31,843 nt of DNA. It comes from Nitrososphaeraceae archaeon. GTDB taxonomy: Archaea; Thermoproteota; Nitrososphaeria; Nitrososphaerales; Nitrososphaeraceae. The stretch's first letter is position 1, and the number at the start of each line of letters is the position of its first letter. A program made the position numbers and the translations under genes. Where the stretch lies: contig JAREAI010000001.1 in the NCBI GenBank assembly GCA_029240435.1, positions 1 through 31,843 on the forward strand. The letters run 5' to 3'. Positions 21,294-28,087 of the stretch are shown in pieces. Under the pieces are notes generated by a model, which worked only from the letters and a program-made list of their open reading frames with translations, did not search any database and was not told the origin of the DNA.

Positions 21294-24200
21294 TTATAAT
21301 ACGACATAAGATTTTAGTGAAGCCAAAGTAGGAGAATTTGTTTTTAACCACTCCAGTGTTTTGATAAAAGAAGAAGCAGATTCGATTGTAGTCAGAACAG
21401 GTATGCCTAATTCTACTGCCTTTCTCCTTATTTGGTATTCATCATAGAGCATTCCTACATATTTTTCAATCGTAGAGGTAGAAGGAATGTTCACTATAAA
21501 GTTAATTTTTCGTTCAAATAAGAGATCCGAAATGTTTGGTTTTCGATCTGGCTCGCTTATCTTATAAACTTGTTGAACGTTCTTGAATTTGTTATTTTCA
21601 ATAAACTCTGCTGTATGCTCAGTTGCCATAATATTATATCCCATAGCTGATATTAGCGATATTAATGGCAGCAATTTCTCCTTGTTTTTCTGTCCTCCAA
21701 TTGTAATTAGAGCTGAGCCAGATAAAGGAAGTGAATAACCAGCGGCTAGATAGGCTTTCGATAAAGCATCGTAAAAGCTTTCTCCAAAGCATGCGACTTC
21801 TCCGGTTGATTGCATCTCTACACTTAATACAATATCCGCACCTTCAAGTTGCATAAAAGAAAATTGTGGGACTTTGATTCCAAAACCTTTAGCCATCAAC
21901 CAAAGATCTTTGGCATTTATGGGAAGTCGATTCCCTGTCATTGCCCGGGCGGCCAGATCAATCAAATTTATTCCTACAAACTTTGAAACAAAGGGCATTG
22001 ACCTAGAAGCTCTAACATTTGCTTCAATTACTGATACCTCGTCATCCTTTATTAGATATTGTATGTTAAATGGTCCCTTTATTCGTAAAGCCTTACCTAT
22101 TCTTGTTGTATAATCTATAATCGTTTCAATAGTTTTCCTGTCAAGTCTCCAAGGAGGAATGCACATTATTGCATCACCTGAATGAATGCCAGCGTTATCG
22201 ATATGTTCTATTAAAGAGCCTATTACTACTTCGTTTCCGTCAGCCACTGCGTCGACTTCGACTTCTGAGGCGTCCTGTAAGAATTTACTTATTACGATAG
22301 GGTGGTCGGGACTAACATTTGTTGCATCAGTTAAAAATTGCTCTAATTGTTCTTCGCCCCATACGACTTTCATCGCTGCACCACTTAAAACGTAAGAAGG
22401 TCTCACAAGGACAGGATATCCTACTTTATCAGCAAATTCTTTTACTTCTTCTACTTCTGTGAATTTTTTCCAAGCCGGCTGTCTGATATTGAGTGAATCT
22501 AAGAGTTTACCAAACTTTTCTCTGTCTTCTGCTCTATCAACATCCTCACTGCTTGTTCCAATAATGTTAACGCCATATTTAGCAAGGTATGGATTGAGGT
22601 TATTTGCTGTCTGACCTCCTACGCAAGTAACAATTCCGCTTGGATTCTCTTTTTCGTAGATATCCATTACTCGCTCAAACGTCAATTCTTCAAAATACAA
22701 CCTGTCAGAGACGTCATAATCCGTAGAGACAGTTTCGGGATTACAATTTATTATAGAAACTTCTTTAATGCCATTCTTTTTCAATGCCCATACCATATTG
22801 ACTGTTCCCCAGTCGAACTCTACACTGCTGCCAATCCTATATGGGCCAGCGCCGAGAACTATTGCACTTCTTTTACTGTTCTCAATTAGTATATCATCGA
22901 CCTCCCCGCCATATGTCATATACAGATAATTTGTTTTGGCAGGCCATTCTGCAGATAATGTGTCGATTTGCTTTACCACTGGTTTTATTCCGAATTTCTG
23001 TCTTATCTCTCTGCATTTAGACTCATCTAGTCCTAAACATCTTCCAAGCTGCCTGTCGGAATAACCAATCTTCTTGGCTTTTTTAATTAAATCTAGATCA
23101 AGATTCGAATTTCGCAATTTTTCTTCCATATCTACAATGTTCTTAATTTTTATCAAAAACCATGGATCAATAGCGGATAGTTGGTTTATTCTATCAATTG
23201 TCATCCCGGCCCGAATAGCTCTAACAATGGTAAAGATTATTTCGTCATTTGGATGTAATAATGCCTGTTCTAATGCCTCACTGTTTTGAGTCAAATCAGC
23301 AACCGAATTATTGGCATTGGCTACTAATCCATCCATGCCAATGTCGCACATTCTGATTGCTTTCTGGATTACTTCTTCTAAATTCCGACCTATTGCCATT
23401 ACCTCACCCACTGATTTCATTGCACTTCCGAGCTTACGTTTTACAAATTCAAATTTTCTAAAGTCCCATCTTGGCATCTTTAATACGATGTAGTCAAGTG
23501 AAGGTTCAAAACAAGCCGTAGTGGCTTTTGTGATTTTGTTAATAAGTTCTGGAAGAGCGTATCCAAGGCCAATTTTTGCTGCCATGTATGCCAGAGGATA
23601 GCCTGTTGCTTTACTTGCAAGAGCAGATGATCTAGACAATCTTGCGTTAATTTCTATGGCACAATATTCCTCTGATTCTGGATTTAGACCAAATTGGATA
23701 TTGCATTCTCCAACGATAGCACAATAGGAGGTTGCACGAATTGCAGCGGATCGCAGCATCTGATACTCAAAATTATTAAGCGTTTGGGAAGGTGCGACAA
23801 CTATATTGTCGCCTGTATGTACACGCATTGATAAAATATTTTCCATATTGCAAACTATAACACTACTACCCTTTGAATCTCGCATTACTTCATATTCGAT
23901 TTGTTTCCAATGACCTACATATTTTTCAATTAGAACCTGATGGACTATACTAAGAGAAAGTCCTCGGTGGACTATTTCTTCCAACTCATATTCGTTGTAT
24001 GCAACGCCACCTCCTCTTCCGCCGAGAGTATATGCAACTCGAATAATCACAGGATAGCCAATCTGCTGACCAATCTTTAACGCTTCATTTACCGTGTAAG
24101 CGGGTGCACTCTCAAGTACAGGGACATCACTTTTTAACATGGCATCTTTAAATAATTGCCTATTTTCGGTAATCTCTATTCCATTGATTTGCGTCCCTAA

Positions 24201-24567
24201 AACTCTTATTCCATATTTTTCTATTATTTTGTCTTTATAGAGTGCTACGCCACAGTTCAGGGCCGTTTGTCCGCCAAAAGCTAACATAATAGAATCAGGT
24301 CTTTCTGCCTCAATTACTTCCTCGACAAATTTAGGAGTAATCGGTAAAAGATAAACCTTATCAGCGAATCTTGTATCAGTCTGAATAGTAGCAATATTAG
24401 GATTTATAAGAACACTCTTGATTCCGTCTTCCTTAAGTGCCTTTAAGCATTGAGAACCGGAGTAGTCAAAATAGCGGTCATTATAATTGACTTTCGCCTG
24501 CTTCTCCGATCTTAATAGCTCCACTACCTAATACGACAACTTTCTTTATTGTTTCATCTTTTGGCAA
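21294..24567 (-). CDS. carB: carbamoyl-phosphate synthase large subunit, split gene: join(24567..24493, 24470..21294), 1083 aa after removal of 22 nt
   Basis: Exon 1 from TTG 24567 (SD GAGGAGG at 24578-24572) reads MPKDETIKKVVVLGSGAIKIGEAGE; exon 2 reads FDYSGSQCLKALKE and continues with all CarB motifs to the C-terminal MGS domain. The track's ATG 24524 N-terminus (MELLRSEKQAKVNYNDRY) is an out-of-frame artefact. Confidence 0.95.
24471..24492 (-). other. 22-nt bulge-helix-bulge intron in carB mRNA (predicted)
   Basis: AGUCAAUUAUAAUGACCGCUAU; central helix GGCG/CGCU, bulges AA|A and AU|U, intron stem GUCA/UGAC; canonical cut sites give an exact in-frame join. Confidence 0.85.
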
Positions 24568-25789
24568 TTTTCCTCCTCTTCCTAGTCTTTATATTATGCT
24601 TAGTTAAAATTGTGGCTGTTTTTTTTACTTTATCAAATCCACTGAACTCATTTATTAATTCTTTGAATCTATTAAAAACAAACAGGCAGTCATTAGGACC
24701 TGGTGATGCTTCTGGATGAAACTGAACGGCTATGATTGGTTTTGACTCATGTTCTATACCTTCTATAGTATTATCGTCAATATTAGAAAACCATATTCTG
24801 AATCCTGTTCTATCAAGGTTTTTAGGCTCAATTCCATAGCCATGGTTCTGACTTGTTATATACGTTTGATTGTTTCTTAAATCTATGCAAGGTTTATTCT
24901 GTCCACGATGTCCGAATTTTAATTTATAAGTGTCAGCCCCTCCAGCTAAAGCGAGGATTTGATTTCCTAAACAGATGCCCAATGTGGGTATCGATTTCTC
25001 AATCAATTCAGTAGCTGTCTTGACTGTAGCTTTGCAGAGTTTGGGGTCTCCAGGACCATTGCTTATCACAACACCCTGTGGTTGATATGATTTTATTTTT
25101 TCGTATGGTGTATCCCATGGAAGGCGGATCACCCTGTAACCCATTCTAACAATATTACGTATTATGCTATATTTAGTACCGGTATCCAATAAGACTATAC
25201 ATTCATTATTATTATTAGTGCCATACTCACATGGTTGATTAACTGATACTTCTGGCATAAAGTTTTGGCCTTCATAATGCTCACTTTTTGCCAATTTTGA
25301 TAATCTTTCATCGTCAATAGAGCCTTTAGAAACTGAAAGAGCTCCATTCATTACACCCTTAACCCTTAACTTTTTTGTAAGCTCCCGTGTGTCGATTCCA
25401 AAGATTCCAGGTATTCCTTCCTCATATAACCATTCATCAAGAGTCTTAATGCAACTCCAATGACTAGCAATACGAGATAGATCATGAATCAATAAACCTT
25501 TAATCTGAATTTTATCAGATTCAAAGTATTTTGGCAAGCCAAATTCATCTTTTATATCGTAACTAGGAACACCGTAATTTCCAATAAGTGGATAAGTCAT
25601 ACATAATATCTGACCTCTATAGGAAGGATCCGTGATTGCTTCCGTGTAACCTACCATGCCTGTATTAAACACTATTTCTCCAGCAATCTCGTCACAAGGA
25701 TGGCCGAACCCTACGCCTGTAAATAGACTACCATCTTCCAGTATTAATTTTGCATTATATGCAGTATATTTCGATTCAAGAGTATGAAT
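24554..25789 (-). CDS. carA: carbamoyl-phosphate synthase small subunit; start probably ATT at 25789
   Basis: AKLILEDG, GEIVFNTGMVGY.E..TDPSY.GQI, SNGPGDP, GICLG.Q, HRGQN, QFHPEA; conserved N-terminus lies upstream of the track start (25672); exact start uncertain. Confidence 0.95.
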   Translation of the reverse strand: MHTLESKYTAYNAKLILEDGSLFTGVGFGHPCDEIAGEIVFNTGMVGYTEAITDPSYRGQILCMTYPLIGNYGVPSYDIKDEFGLPKYFESDKIQIKGLLIHDLSRIASHWSCIKTLDEWLYEEGIPGIFGIDTRELTKKLRVKGVMNGALSVSKGSIDDERLSKLAKSEHYEGQNFMPEVSVNQPCEYGTNNNNECIVLLDTGTKYSIIRNIVRMGYRVIRLPWDTPYEKIKSYQPQGVVISNGPGDPKLCKATVKTATELIEKSIPTLGICLGNQILALAGGADTYKLKFGHRGQNKPCIDLRNNQTYITSQNHGYGIEPKNLDRTGFRIWFSNIDDNTIEGIEHESKPIIAVQFHPEASPGPNDCLFVFNRFKELINEFSGFDKVKKTATILTKHNIKTRKRRKIAKR

Positions 25790-25908
25790 TTTAAACCCTT
25801 GAAATCTGCTTCAAATAGGGAATTTAAGTTTTTGCTCTGATATGATGGCTGTGTTAATTTAACTATAAACCTATAGCTGCGAATACATTCTCAAATTCTA
25901 CTATGGTC

Positions 25909-26660
25909 ATGTTTGAAAGTAAGAAGACATCCGCAGAGACTGTGATGTATTCATTATACTTATACTTTCTAGGATTGAGTTTCAGGAACATCTCTAAAGC
26001 AGTAGAACCATTCAAAGAAAAGAGGAGTCATGTGACTGTGTGCAATTGGGTATAGCGATTCCATCCTGACATTTATCACTGAAAAATATCACAATGATTA
26101 CTATCTCCATTATCAAAAAGTAACTATGTTTCTATTTGGAATTCGATGAAATTCATTAACCAAAGAAGATATTTCAAAAAAAGTGAAGAGAAGAGTTTTT
26201 AGAATTTGTCATTAATATTTGTCATTAAAGACAAAGAAACACTGAATATAAAGAATGAAATGAACATATCTATGTACATGATTATTGATTTTGCAGTTCA
26301 ACTGCTGCAATCAAAAGACTATGATCTTTAATATTCATCATATTCACTATATTCATCATACTATTACTCAGAAAGAAAAAAGATATTTTCTATAAGAGAA
26401 GTTTCTTTAAAAAATGGCTAATAGATATGAGAATAGAAAAGATATCAAAACATCTATACATATACACACACAGATGCCTTATGGTGATGCTATACATATA
26501 TTATAGATACTAAATATGAAACATCATTTACATTCATCTTATCAAAGAGAAAAAGAACCATTATTGATAGAACATCTCTCCAATACATAAAGAGCGTAGA
26601 ACCGAAAGTTATGAGTATTGTGATTATGGTTATTACTATCTATACAGAAAGGAAAAAGAT
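25909..26660 (+). mobile_element. degraded IS6-family transposase relic
   Basis: ATG 25909: MFESKKTSAETVMYSLYLYFLGLSFRNISKAVEPFKEKRSHVTVCNWV*RF (HTH part); later broken fragments KHHLHSSY (26519-26542), IIDRT, QYIK (26581), RRTESY (26595-26612) match the C-terminus of archaeal IS6 transposases as I recall it. Confidence 0.75.
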
Positions 26661-26799
26661 GTATACTAGTAGAGAGAGCACACAAATGAATGAATGATAC
26701 ATATGGTAAGGCAGCTTATCGATTTTCAAGCAACATGGTGAAAAAGATCAACAAAAAGAAAAGTTATAAAAACTAGAACAATTTAGTGGATCACAGAAA

Positions 26800-26835
26800 T
26801 GAACAAGTTCATGAACTAGTTCATGAACGCGTTCA
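26800..26835. repeat. three tandem 12-bp palindromes TGAAC-nn-GTTCA
   Basis: TGAACaaGTTCA TGAACtaGTTCA TGAACgcGTTCA. Confidence 0.9.
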
Positions 26836-27124
26836 CACTTTTTTACCATCCTTTTTTGACAGGCTAATTCTAGACTAACCAATATAGGAAAACGTTACCA
26901 AATAACAGAACAACAATACATAAATTAGTTAGATTCAAAGTTACAGATCAAGAAAGTATAATAATGTTTAGAATATTAGGTGGGTTTATTTATTATCAGA
27001 CTATAATGGTTCAGTGGGATGCAAGTTAAGTAGAAAGGAGGATGCATAGATAAGTAATTAAATATTTTACTAGAATAAGTTGATTATTTAAAGCGCTATT
27101 TCATTCTATCTACCATTGTTTTAT

Positions 27125-27240
27125 AGAACAGAAAGCTTTTTGATGATAACTATTTCTTCTTATAAGAAATAGAGAGACAGAGTACGTAGAACAAGTAATT
27201 CATTGGTTCAATCTGTTTGTTGATTTTCATAATGAGATGA
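27125..27240 (+). mobile_element. second IS6-like transposase C-terminal fragment
   Basis: RTESF-(frameshift)-DDNYF ... VEQVIHWFNLFVDFHNEM, resembling the DRTESFDDY...W.NLFVD.HN tail. Confidence 0.6.
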
Positions 27241-27359
27241 CTTTTGAAAAAATGGTTAAATGAACAGAGATCTAGAAAGACACAAATGTTTATTCCTCAT
27301 ATCAATCAAATTTCCTCCTCGAATGTCTTAATTTAATGTTTATTATAACTGAAAAATTT

Positions 27360-28087
27360 CTAAAATTCTACTGTCTTGCGATACAGCTCAAATCTTTTTT
27401 GAATCTCTTCCTTAGTAATAGAGAGTAATCTCTTCACTCCAAAATCCTCAACAGCGAATGCTCCCATAACATTTCCGTGAACTACTGCTTCCTTGAAAGT
27501 CCTGACTCTGAGACTATCTTGCTGAGCAAGATAACCAATAAATCCGCCGGCAAAAGCGTCTCCTGCTCCAGTCGGACATCATTAATGACTACTCCGTTAA
27601 CTTTGCTCATCATTTTGATTACATCATCCCGTTTATTTAAAATCCAATATTCTATCGTATCACAAACAGTCAGTTTGGGATGTGGAAAATATTCCAGTAA
27701 TTTGATGTTTTGAATAGGATCGTTATTAGCAAGATAAATATATTGTGATTTGCGATATTCATCGGGTATGGTAGGTTCGAAATGTGCTATTACATTTAAT
27801 TCTGTTTTATTAGTAGTACGATGAGAAAGGTCATAGTCAAACGTAGAATCGTAATGGAATGTCTTGTCTTGTAGGTTAGTGATAATTCCTTTTGTATCTA
27901 ATCTGTTGTCTAGAATCTCTCTATAATGAGACGGAAAATCGAAACCTATAACTCCAACTATCGAAGTACGTGTATAGAAGCTAGATGAAAGAGATGCAAA
28001 GGTAGCAGCCCCTCCCATAATTTTTGTTTGAGTTTTAAAAGGCGTACGTGTGGTATCTAATGCAATGGTTCCAAAGACTGTTAACAT
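27360..28087 (-). pseudogene. PfkB-family carbohydrate/nucleoside kinase broken by an internal deletion and frameshift
   Basis: Frame 1 reads MLTVFGTIALD...GGAATFA...VVIND up to 27578; another frame resumes at 27575 with PTGAGDAFAGGFIGYLA...KTVEF* (stop 27362-27360); the intervening segment is absent. Confidence 0.85.

What the first reader, a model, noticed from the sequence alone, without database searches (positions are those of the whole stretch)
24471..24567. Splicing as a possible on/off switch for carbamoyl-phosphate synthesis
SEEN: the intron is phase 0, only 75 nt into the CDS, non-multiple-of-three, and carries its own in-frame stop in the loop (24483-24481). The carB start overlaps the carA stop by 14 nt. 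Unspliced mRNA therefore gives CarA plus a dead 28-aa peptide. KNOWN: CPS supplies arginine and pyrimidine synthesis; eukaryotic HAC1/XBP1 use a small frameshifting intron, joined by tRNA ligase, as a regulatory switch. INFERENCE: CarB output could be tied to EndA/RtcB activity, and ribosomes on exon 1 could compete with BHB folding. That would be a post-transcriptional control of nitrogen assimilation. It could equally be a neutral, constitutively spliced insertion.
Basis: inference. Interest (0 to 1): 0.7.

Follow-up and report, generated by a model that had tools for sequence, protein, structure and literature searches.

The report
Spliced tRNA-type mini-intron in carB
The only carbamoyl-phosphate synthase large-subunit gene of this soil ammonia-oxidising archaeon is broken by a real 22-base tRNA-type intron that must be cut out of the mRNA, but the evidence points to routine splicing with a built-in stop codon as a fail-safe, not to a nitrogen-sensing switch.

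Summary
Observation confirmed. On the minus strand, carB starts at TTG 24567 and overlaps the carA stop by 14 nt. It runs 25 codons and is then interrupted by 22 nt (24492-24471) holding an in-frame TAA (24483-24481). It resumes at 24470 with FDYSG.

The region folds as a canonical bulge-helix-bulge (BHB) motif, and its predicted cuts remove exactly these 22 nt. The same insertion sits at the same codon junction in nearly all Nitrososphaeraceae and many other families of the order. The inner helix co-varies, and synonymous sites are frozen only in intron-bearing genes.

In a cultured relative, RNA-seq contigs from three studies carry the exact junction; about 84-100% is spliced by k-mer depth. 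The genome encodes two EndA subunits and RtcB.

The switch reading is not supported. Length (17-52 nt) and phase vary freely, the loop is not conserved, and the intron has been precisely lost within at least eight genera.

One part survives. All 111 distinct introns kill the unspliced reading frame, and 38 of 38 multiple-of-three introns carry a frame-0 stop. So unspliced mRNA is translated often enough to be selected against.

The scan noted this carB intron before in at least 18 other genomes. I found no published report.

The parts
24554..25789 (-). carA (glutamine amidotransferase small subunit of carbamoyl-phosphate synthase). The first canonical start is GTG 25672. The conserved N-terminal peptide lies upstream of it, so the real start is probably the in-frame ATT at 25789-25787.
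   Evidence: Pfam GATase and CPSase_sm_chain match. With the GTG start, the CPSase_sm_chain match begins only at profile position 26. The frame is open to 25810. The upstream peptide and the ATT are conserved across the order.
24572..24576 (-). Shine-Dalgarno-like GGAGG, 4 nt upstream of the carB TTG start
   Evidence: Read directly from the sequence.
24493..24567 (-). carB exon 1: 25 codons from the TTG start, overlapping the last 14 nt of carA
   Evidence: It shares 20/25 identities with residues 1-25 of an intronless CarB.
24471..24492 (-). 22-nt BHB intron. Parts in order: A (third base of bulge 1), GUCA (5' strand of h'), loop AUUAUAA, UGAC (3' strand of h'), CGCU (3' strand of H), AU (first two bases of bulge 2).
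   Evidence: Fold. Orthologous insertions in relatives. Covariation. Exact excision of the orthologous intron in RNA of a relative.
24481..24483 (-). Frame-0 TAA stop in the hairpin loop (a second frame-0 stop, TGA, follows at 24480-24478). It ends translation of unspliced mRNA after 28 aa.
   Evidence: Frame-0 stops occur in 101/111 distinct introns and in 38/38 multiple-of-three introns.
24455..24511 (-). Whole hBHBh' splicing motif.
- Outer helix h: 24511-24499 pairs with 24468-24455 (exon 1 with exon 2).
- Central helix H: 24498-24495 pairs with 24476-24473.
- Bulge 1: 24494-24492, cut after 24493.
- Inner helix h': 24491-24488 pairs with 24480-24477.
- Bulge 2: 24472-24470(69), cut after 24471.
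   Evidence: MFE; 91.9% of cells paired against 20-48% when the partners are slid. RNAalifold finds the same helices; exon synonymous sites are fixed only in intron-bearing genes.
21294..24470 (-). carB exon 2 (1058 codons plus stop)
   Evidence: Pfam CPSase_L_D1/D2/D3 and MGS domains. It is the only carB in the genome.

Best explanation
This is a genuine archaeal bulge-helix-bulge (tRNA-type) intron inside the coding sequence of the single-copy carB gene.

Mechanism:
1. carA and carB are transcribed together (inferred).
2. Exon-1 bases -19 to -7 pair with exon-2 bases +3 to +16. The last GGCG of exon 1 pairs with CGCU near the intron's 3' end. An intron hairpin forms the inner helix.
3. This presents two 3-nt bulges, 4 bp apart, to the two-subunit splicing endonuclease EndA (inferred here).
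4. EndA cuts after the second base of each bulge, and RtcB joins the exons (inferred here).
5. The junction GAA|TTT restores the invariant motif IGEAGE-FDYSG.

Exact excision at these positions is shown in the RNA of a cultured relative.

Splicing is most likely constitutive housekeeping rather than a nitrogen-responsive switch. The element behaves as an old, dispensable and possibly once-mobile intron. It persists because losing it needs a precise deletion.

Because archaeal ribosomes can load before splicing, a fraction of pre-mRNA is translated. Selection has therefore kept a stop codon in frame 0 of the intron, so that unspliced RNA yields only a short peptide and not a 1,080-aa defective CarB.
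For: Structure:
- The MFE fold has canonical BHB topology, and its predicted cuts equal the 22-nt removal.
- On 103 distinct sequences, 91.9% of cells pair against 19.8-48% for slid partners. The covariation score is 0.272 against 0.174 in shuffles (0/500 reach it).
- The inner helix swaps UA 54 / CG 44, CG 73 / UA 22, and AU 56 / GC 34.
- One exon-intron pair in H shows the compensatory change CG to UA.
- Bulge 1 is AAA/AGA/AAU and bulge 2 is AAU/AUU/AGU in 122 of 123 sequences.

Exon constraint (intron-bearing vs intronless genes):
- Gly GGC 119/123 vs 9/33.
- Gly GGA 116/123 vs 7/33.
- Tyr TAC 119/123 vs 13/33.
- Ile ATC 109/123 vs 9/33.

RNA:
- In L117 the joint 1467->1501 ('skips 33', no positional ambiguity) is in contigs of 3 RNA-seq runs from 3 studies.
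- Spliced vs unspliced depth is 1331 vs 252.5, 1869 vs 155.2, and 274.8 vs 0.

Machinery and copy number:
- Two EndA-family genes and one RtcB are present in this genome.
- There is only one carB.

Against a dedicated switch:
- Lengths are 17-52 nt and mod-3 classes are 38/45/28.
- The loops are unconserved.
- Intronless and intron-bearing species sit in the same genus for g15, g27, g31, g40, g44, g58, g69 and g72.
- No Rfam element lies in or upstream of carAB.

Fail-safe stop:
- 38/38 multiple-of-three introns have a frame-0 stop, against 2/38 and 9/38 in the other frames. A shuffled intron has one with P about 0.31, and 0/2000 shuffles give all 38.
- 101/111 of all introns have a frame-0 stop, against 25 and 23 in the other frames.
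- The unspliced ORF always ends within 24 codons of exon 1.
Against: - Splicing was shown in a relative (same family, about 80% CarB identity), not in this organism.
- The spliced fractions come from contig k-mer depth, not read counts. The one raw-read run gave no reads over the junction.
- Culture conditions of the runs are unknown to me, so condition-dependent splicing is not excluded.
- An unspliced share of 8-16% in two studies is sizeable. It could reflect regulated or slow splicing, or genomic DNA carry-over.
- Retention across most ammonia-oxidising lineages, together with universal 'unspliced = dead' design, is also what a useful gate would look like.
- The sequences compared are phylogenetically related, so the statistics overstate independence.
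Confidence: 0.72

Rival explanations
1. Regulatory on/off switch. The share of carB mRNA that gets spliced is actively modulated, through EndA/RtcB activity or through carA-coupled ribosomes melting the BHB. CarB output, and hence arginine and pyrimidine synthesis, is thereby gated after transcription, in the manner of HAC1/XBP1.
For: - Every intron makes unspliced mRNA non-productive: 111/111, with strong frame-0 stop enrichment.
- A measurable unspliced pool of 8-16% is seen in two of three studies.
- The BHB lies 56-112 nt from a start codon that overlaps the carA stop, so translation and folding must compete.
- The intron is retained across most families of the order.
Against: - Precise loss occurred in at least eight genera that keep the same metabolism.
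- Length and phase vary freely, and the loop has no conserved sensor sequence.
- The RNA is mostly spliced in all three studies.
- An intron of the same kind at the same site occurs in an unrelated family of the phylum (G566). Earlier scan notes, which I did not test, report it in DPANN archaea too. A shared physiological role is hard to argue for across such different organisms.
- No dedicated stress-activated nuclease such as Ire1 is implied; EndA and RtcB are housekeeping enzymes.
Confidence: 0.12
2. Passive kinetic throttle. Splicing is unregulated but slow relative to ribosome loading, so the intron lowers or delays CarB synthesis relative to CarA by a fixed factor. This stoichiometric tuning would be the reason the intron is retained.
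For: - An unspliced pool of 8-16% by k-mer depth.
- The start codon overlaps the carA stop, so it is translationally coupled.
- Early frame-0 stops release ribosomes on the BHB even in introns that would frameshift anyway (63/73, derived).
- carA itself seems to use a weak non-canonical start, which hints at tuned expression of the operon.
Against: - A reduction of 10-20% is small and easily obtained by other means.
- The repeated losses argue against an important dosage role.
- No protein-level data are available.
Confidence: 0.1
3. Not an intron: a pseudogene, an assembly error, or a programmed +1 frameshift or readthrough site.
For: In this window alone, a +1 shift between 24527 and 24484 would also give an open frame.
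Against: - It is the single carB of the genome.
- The same insertion is present in complete genomes and more than 120 distinct sequences, with covariation.
- A third of the introns are multiples of three with in-frame stops, which a frameshift cannot bypass.
- The RNA shows the exact deletion.
- A frameshift product would split the invariant GEAGE-FDYSG motif.
Confidence: 0.02

Closest known systems
BHB intron in cbf5 (pseudouridine synthase) pre-mRNA of Crenarchaeota (Watanabe 2002; Yoshinari 2006; Yokobori 2009, PMC2738675)
   Same: - A short intron (16-44 bp in cbf5; 17-52 nt here) in a protein-coding gene, flanked by a BHB motif.
- It interrupts a catalytically essential conserved motif.
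- It is cut by the hetero-oligomeric (alpha-beta)2 splicing endonuclease typical of this superphylum (PMC5829648).
- Its distribution is patchy, with gains and losses.
- It is often mis-annotated.
   Different: - A different gene (core nitrogen/pyrimidine metabolism) and a different lineage. cbf5 of Cenarchaeum and Nitrosopumilus has no intron (PMC2738675).
- The BHB here is near-canonical rather than relaxed.
- Some cbf5 introns are multiples of three and are described as not changing the reading frame. I could not check in PMC2738675 whether they contain in-frame stops. Here every multiple-of-three intron carries a frame-0 stop.
- PMC7714728 (2020) still lists cbf5 as the only coding-region case.
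BHB intron in the 5' UTR of Haloferax volcanii HVO_1309 (PMC7714728)
   Same: An mRNA substrate of the tRNA splicing endonuclease. Removal appears to be needed for efficient expression. Its function is unknown.
   Different: It lies in the untranslated leader, so it does not interrupt the reading frame or create a truncated product.
HAC1/XBP1 unconventional cytoplasmic splicing in eukaryotes
   Same: A small non-spliceosomal intron whose removal changes what is translated. The exons are joined by an RtcB-type or tRNA ligase. The unspliced message is non-productive.
   Different: HAC1/XBP1 use a dedicated stress-activated nuclease (Ire1) that recognises twin stem-loops, and splicing is demonstrably condition-dependent. 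Here the nuclease is housekeeping EndA acting on a BHB. No condition-dependence is shown, and the intron is dispensable in sister species.
Archaeal tRNA and rRNA BHB introns
   Same: The same motif geometry (3-nt bulges, 4-bp central helix, cuts after the second bulge base) and the same enzymes.
   Different: The host is an mRNA that is being translated, so ribosomes and the endonuclease compete for the same RNA. The flanking helix is built from codons, which constrains synonymous sites.

Membership tests
Archaeal BHB (tRNA-type) intron | Two 3-nt bulges on opposite strands separated by a 4-bp helix, flanked by helices (hBHBh') | tested here: met
   - One search gives this fold for the window.
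- in H, three pairs are 100% paired and the fourth is 79% paired.
- Bulge 1 is 3 nt in all sequences. Bulge 2 is 3-4 nt.
- The inner helix is 94% paired with 4 of 5 pairs co-varying. The outer helix is 90% paired.
Archaeal BHB (tRNA-type) intron | Cleavage at symmetric positions in the two bulges, followed by exact exon ligation | tested here: met
   in the orthologous intron of L117, the RNA junction 1467->1501 falls after the second base of each predicted bulge (AG|A and AA|U). It is seen in three studies. It was not tested in the window's own organism.
Archaeal BHB (tRNA-type) intron | Splicing endonuclease EndA and ligase RtcB encoded by the host | tested here: met
   two PF01974 genes (contigs C27 and C252), consistent with the two-subunit type; one RtcB (C286, 582 bits).
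Archaeal BHB (tRNA-type) intron | Cut by purified EndA in vitro, and excised intron released (often as a circle) | not testable with these tools
   Needs a cleavage assay or circRNA-seq.
Regulated unconventional mRNA splicing (HAC1/XBP1 type) | The spliced fraction changes with a physiological signal | not testable with these tools
   Only one lay of reads was allowed. It gave unspliced shares of 16%, 8% and 0% in three studies of unknown conditions, from contig depth only.
Regulated unconventional mRNA splicing (HAC1/XBP1 type) | Intron features needed for the switch are conserved among relatives that share the physiology | tested here: not met
   - Non-3n length is not conserved: 38 of 111 are multiples of three.
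- The intron is absent from sister species in at least eight genera.
- The loop sequence is not conserved.
- Only the 'unspliced = truncated' property is conserved.
Mobile intron with homing endonuclease | An endonuclease gene inside or beside the intron | tested here: not met
   The intron is too short to encode one. The neighbours are a metallophosphoesterase downstream and carA upstream, and no homing-endonuclease domain was found in the ORFs scanned. Earlier scan notes report such neighbours in DPANN lineages; I did not test that.

The most novel reading that the evidence does not exclude
Splicing of the carB intron is rate-limiting and modulated, for example by carA-coupled ribosomes that melt the exon-exon helix or by EndA/RtcB availability. 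Ammonia-oxidising archaea would then gate carbamoyl-phosphate synthesis after transcription. That would make it an archaeal counterpart of HAC1/XBP1, and the conserved frame-0 stop would be the 'off' state.
Probability: 0.12. Interest if true: 0.85.

Novelty: new member of a known kind. Interest (0 to 1): 0.6.

Why it matters
Until now only cbf5 of Crenarchaeota was accepted as an archaeal protein-coding gene that needs tRNA-type splicing (PMC7714728, PMC2738675). Here an essential gene of arginine and pyrimidine synthesis needs it, in the globally abundant ammonia-oxidising archaea, and RNA evidence comes from a culture.

Three consequences follow.
- Annotation: standard gene callers give a truncated carB here (ORF from GTG 24524) plus an orphan 28-aa ORF, so automatic annotation probably mis-calls carB across these genomes.
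- Evolution: codons flanking the intron are constrained by RNA structure, and the intron is lost precisely and repeatedly.
- Mechanism: the universal frame-0 stop implies that ribosomes do translate unspliced archaeal mRNA. This gives a natural system, with cultured strains and public RNA-seq, in which to study the race between translation and splicing in a cell without a nucleus.

Tried and rejected
- Programmed +1 frameshift, pseudogene and assembly artefact were rejected.
- Second carB copy: none. The other hit in the genome has 27% identity to carB, so it is not a second carB.
- tRNA genes in the window: none.
- Rfam scan of 24000-27500: only a chance-level miRNA hit at E = 0.25, so no known riboswitch or leader.
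- Homing endonuclease beside carAB: none.
- The raw-read RNA run X24 laid reads only at the two ends of the stretch and none over the junction, so no read-level spliced/unspliced ratio could be obtained.
- I chose a cultured relative rather than the window itself for the single RNA search, so expression of this MAG's own gene was not examined.
- Eight literature searches found no paper on a carB intron. The Cenarchaeum genome paper (PMC1643844) is not held.
- Pairing of exon-1 base -7 with exon-2 base +3 is only 51% conserved. RNAalifold prefers G(-6) with Y(+3), which pairs in 100% of sequences. The 3' bulge may therefore be 3 to 5 nt, and I could not decide between the two registers.

Full report
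**1. What is in the sequence**

All features lie on the minus strand.
- The carA ORF ends at 24554.
- A TTG at 24567-24565 opens a frame that reads 25 codons (…VVVLGSGAIKIGEAGE). A GGAGG lies 4 nt upstream of the TTG.
- The frame then continues S-Q-L-stop, with the TAA at 24483-24481.
- The +1 frame is open from 24527 and reads …FDYSGSQCLKALKEDG… from 24470 down to the stop at 21294.
- Removing the 22 nt at 24492-24471 joins GAA to TTT and gives IGEAGE-FDYSG.
- Exon 1 matches residues 1-25 of an intronless relative's CarB with 20/25 identities and no gap, ending exactly at the junction.
- Exon 2 carries the CPSase_L D1/D2/D3 and MGS domains.
- The start overlaps carA by 14 nt.

**2. The fold**

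The minimum-energy fold of 24530-24440 has the topology of a canonical archaeal hBHBh' motif (-23.6 kcal/mol, z = -2.0).
- Outer helix h: exon 1 (24511-24499) pairs with exon 2 (24468-24455).
- Central helix H: a 4-bp helix, GGCG/CGCU.
- Bulge 1: AAA, on the 5' strand.
- Inner helix h': GUCA/UGAC, with a 7-nt loop.
- Bulge 2: AUU(U), on the 3' strand.

By established knowledge of the motif (Marck & Grosjean 2003; EndA-RNA structures), cleavage falls after the second base of each bulge. Those cuts excise exactly 24492-24471.

**3. Relatives**

The genome is a 3.07-Mb, 85%-complete assembly with one carB. Named loci place it in Nitrososphaeraceae, the soil ammonia oxidisers.

An insertion sits at the same codon junction in:
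- all 24 family members first examined;
- 110 of the 116 family genomes that matched the pattern, out of 141 searched; the 25 that did not match include introns longer than the 30-nt gap allowed, as four fetched non-matching genomes with 32-40-nt introns showed;
- many other families of the order, including Nitrosopumilaceae such as Nitrosotenuis, and a Nitrosomirales genome.

Outside the order, genomes sampled across the phylum were intronless with one exception. G566 has a 19-nt insertion with its own canonical BHB at the same site.

Within the order the distribution is patchy. Species with and without the intron share a genus label in g15, g27, g31, g40, g44, g58, g69 and g72. The intronless genes have a scar-free GAR|TTY junction, which is what precise loss would leave.

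**4. Is the structure under selection?**

From 173 loci I obtained 124 distinct intron-bearing junctions and 33 distinct intronless ones; 123 and 33 had enough flank to score.

On a MAFFT alignment of 103 distinct sequences, my named structure gave these results:
- 91.9% of cells are paired, against 19.8-48% when the partners are slid.
- The covariation score is 0.272, against 0.174 ± 0.004 in shuffles (0/500 reach it).
- 153 cells show double changes, against 55 expected.
- The inner helix swaps freely: UA 54 / CG 44, CG 73 / UA 22, AU 56 / GC 34.
- One exon-intron pair of H changes CG to UA in two sequences.

RNAalifold found the same helices on its own.

Bulges are AAA/AGA/AAU and AAU/AUU/AGU in 122 of 123 sequences; the remaining one has GUU as bulge 2.

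The exon strands of the motif are frozen at synonymous sites only when the intron is present:

| Codon | Intron-bearing | Intronless |
|---|---|---|
| Gly GGC | 119/123 | 9/33 |
| Gly GGA | 116/123 | 7/33 |
| Tyr TAC | 119/123 | 13/33 |
| Ile ATC | 109/123 | 9/33 |
| Ser TCY | 121/123 | 11/33 |

This is direct evidence that the RNA structure, not only the protein, is selected.

**5. Is it spliced?**

I spent the single run search on a complete 2.5-Mb genome of the same family (G169, locus L117). Its genus g15 corresponds to Nitrososphaera by the named loci. Its carB has a 33-nt intron at L117:1468-1500.

Twenty RNA-seq runs from five studies hold the gene. On L117:1251-1750, a joint 1467->1501 ('skips 33, ends AG..AA', no positional ambiguity) is present in the contigs of three RNA runs from three studies.

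| Run | Spliced depth | Unspliced depth | Unspliced share |
|---|---|---|---|
| X1 | 1331 | 252.5 | about 16% |
| X2 | 1869 | 155.2 | about 8% |
| X15 | 274.8 | 0 | 0% |

The cuts fall after the second base of each predicted bulge.

Caveats:
- These are contig k-mer depths, not read counts.
- Contigs drop rare variants.
- The unspliced signal may include DNA carry-over.
- The raw-read run gave nothing over the junction.
- The organism is a relative, not the window's own.

The window's genome encodes two EndA-family proteins and one RtcB. Two EndA genes fit the (alpha-beta)2 endonuclease reported for this superphylum (PMC5829648).

**6. The switch hypothesis**

The second is observed.
- 111 distinct introns range from 17 to 52 nt.
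- The mod-3 classes are 38 (0), 45 (1) and 28 (2), so non-3n length is not selected.
- Presence is patchy within genera.
- The loop has no conserved sequence, so there is nothing aptamer-like.
- No Rfam element lies in or upstream of the operon.

The first outcome is approached: 84-100% is spliced.

A similar intron at the same site in an unrelated family fits a selfish or historical origin at a highly conserved DNA target better than a physiological role tied to ammonia oxidisers. Earlier scan notes report it in DPANN archaea beside homing-endonuclease genes, which I did not test. No endonuclease gene lies beside carAB here.

**7. What does survive**

One property is universal. In all 111 introns the unspliced reading frame ends within 24 codons of exon 1.

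| Set of introns | Frame 0 stop | Frame +1 stop | Frame +2 stop |
|---|---|---|---|
| Multiple of three (38) | 38 | 2 | 9 |
| All (111) | 101 | 25 | 23 |

A shuffled intron has a frame-0 stop with P of about 0.31, and none of 2000 shuffles gave all 38. The stops lie at different codons, in the stem or the loop, in different lineages.

Relatedness inflates these numbers, but the frame specificity is a within-sequence control. I read it as selection for early termination on pre-mRNA. Some unspliced carB mRNA is translated, which is plausible given the coupled start 75 nt upstream. A 1,080-aa CarB with an insertion in its ATP-site motif is worse than a 28-aa peptide. This is inference. It fits a fail-safe, a passive throttle or a true switch equally well, and only condition-resolved ratios can separate them.

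**8. Novelty**

In the held literature the only coding-region BHB intron is cbf5 of Crenarchaeota. PMC7714728 says so explicitly in 2020. PMC2738675 notes that other cases were only 'predicted' and that thaumarchaeal cbf5 is intronless. A 5'-UTR case exists in Haloferax. Eight searches found nothing on carB.

The scan itself has noted this carB intron in at least 18 other genomes, one with RNA evidence. I reproduced the core claims independently here.

No claim in this report rests on the genomes flagged unpublished (G272, G283, G413).

**9. Verdict**

- It is a real, spliced, anciently conserved BHB mini-intron in carB (confidence about 0.97).
- Splicing is most likely constitutive, with a selected frame-0 stop as a fail-safe (about 0.72 for the combined statement).
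- A dedicated regulatory switch is possible but unsupported (about 0.12).

Noticed in passing
window 25672-25813 (minus strand): carA has no in-frame ATG/GTG/TTG upstream of its conserved N-terminal peptide (K-I-[PH]-T-L…Y-x-G-Y-x-A-K-L-x-L-E-D-G). An in-frame ATT (25789-25787) is nearly invariant across the order and is directly preceded by a stop in several relatives. carA therefore probably starts at a non-canonical ATT. Gene callers would pick GTG 25672 and lose about 39 residues.
   Followed up: partly
L017, L019, L117, L119 (relatives, genera g15 and g4), at the position equivalent to window 24567-24565: The codon that is the TTG/ATG start of carB in most relatives is TCG in these genomes. 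No canonical start lies in the exon-1 frame except a GTG inside VLVLGSG. A conserved ATA six codons downstream might serve. The real start of carB exon 1 in these genomes is unexplained.
   Followed up: partly
G566:C70:1903-1947 (another family of the phylum): A 19-nt insertion with its own canonical BHB (GCGG/CCGC central helix, GGCC/GGCC hairpin) sits at the same carB codon junction, in a lineage whose sampled relatives are intronless. This suggests independent gain or horizontal spread.
   Followed up: no
window 25813-27480: About 1.6 kb upstream of carA has no ORF of 90 aa or more on either strand, and Rfam finds nothing there.
   Followed up: partly
G311:C44:109-179 and G311:C102:3228-3298: One relative's assembly holds two copies of the carB intron region that differ by one base in the hairpin. 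This may be strain heterogeneity in the MAG or a duplication.
   Followed up: no
L117:1319-1675 in run X24: The only raw-read RNA run laid reads solely at the two ends of the 500-nt stretch and none in the middle, unlike the contig runs. It looks like a filter artefact rather than biology.
   Followed up: no
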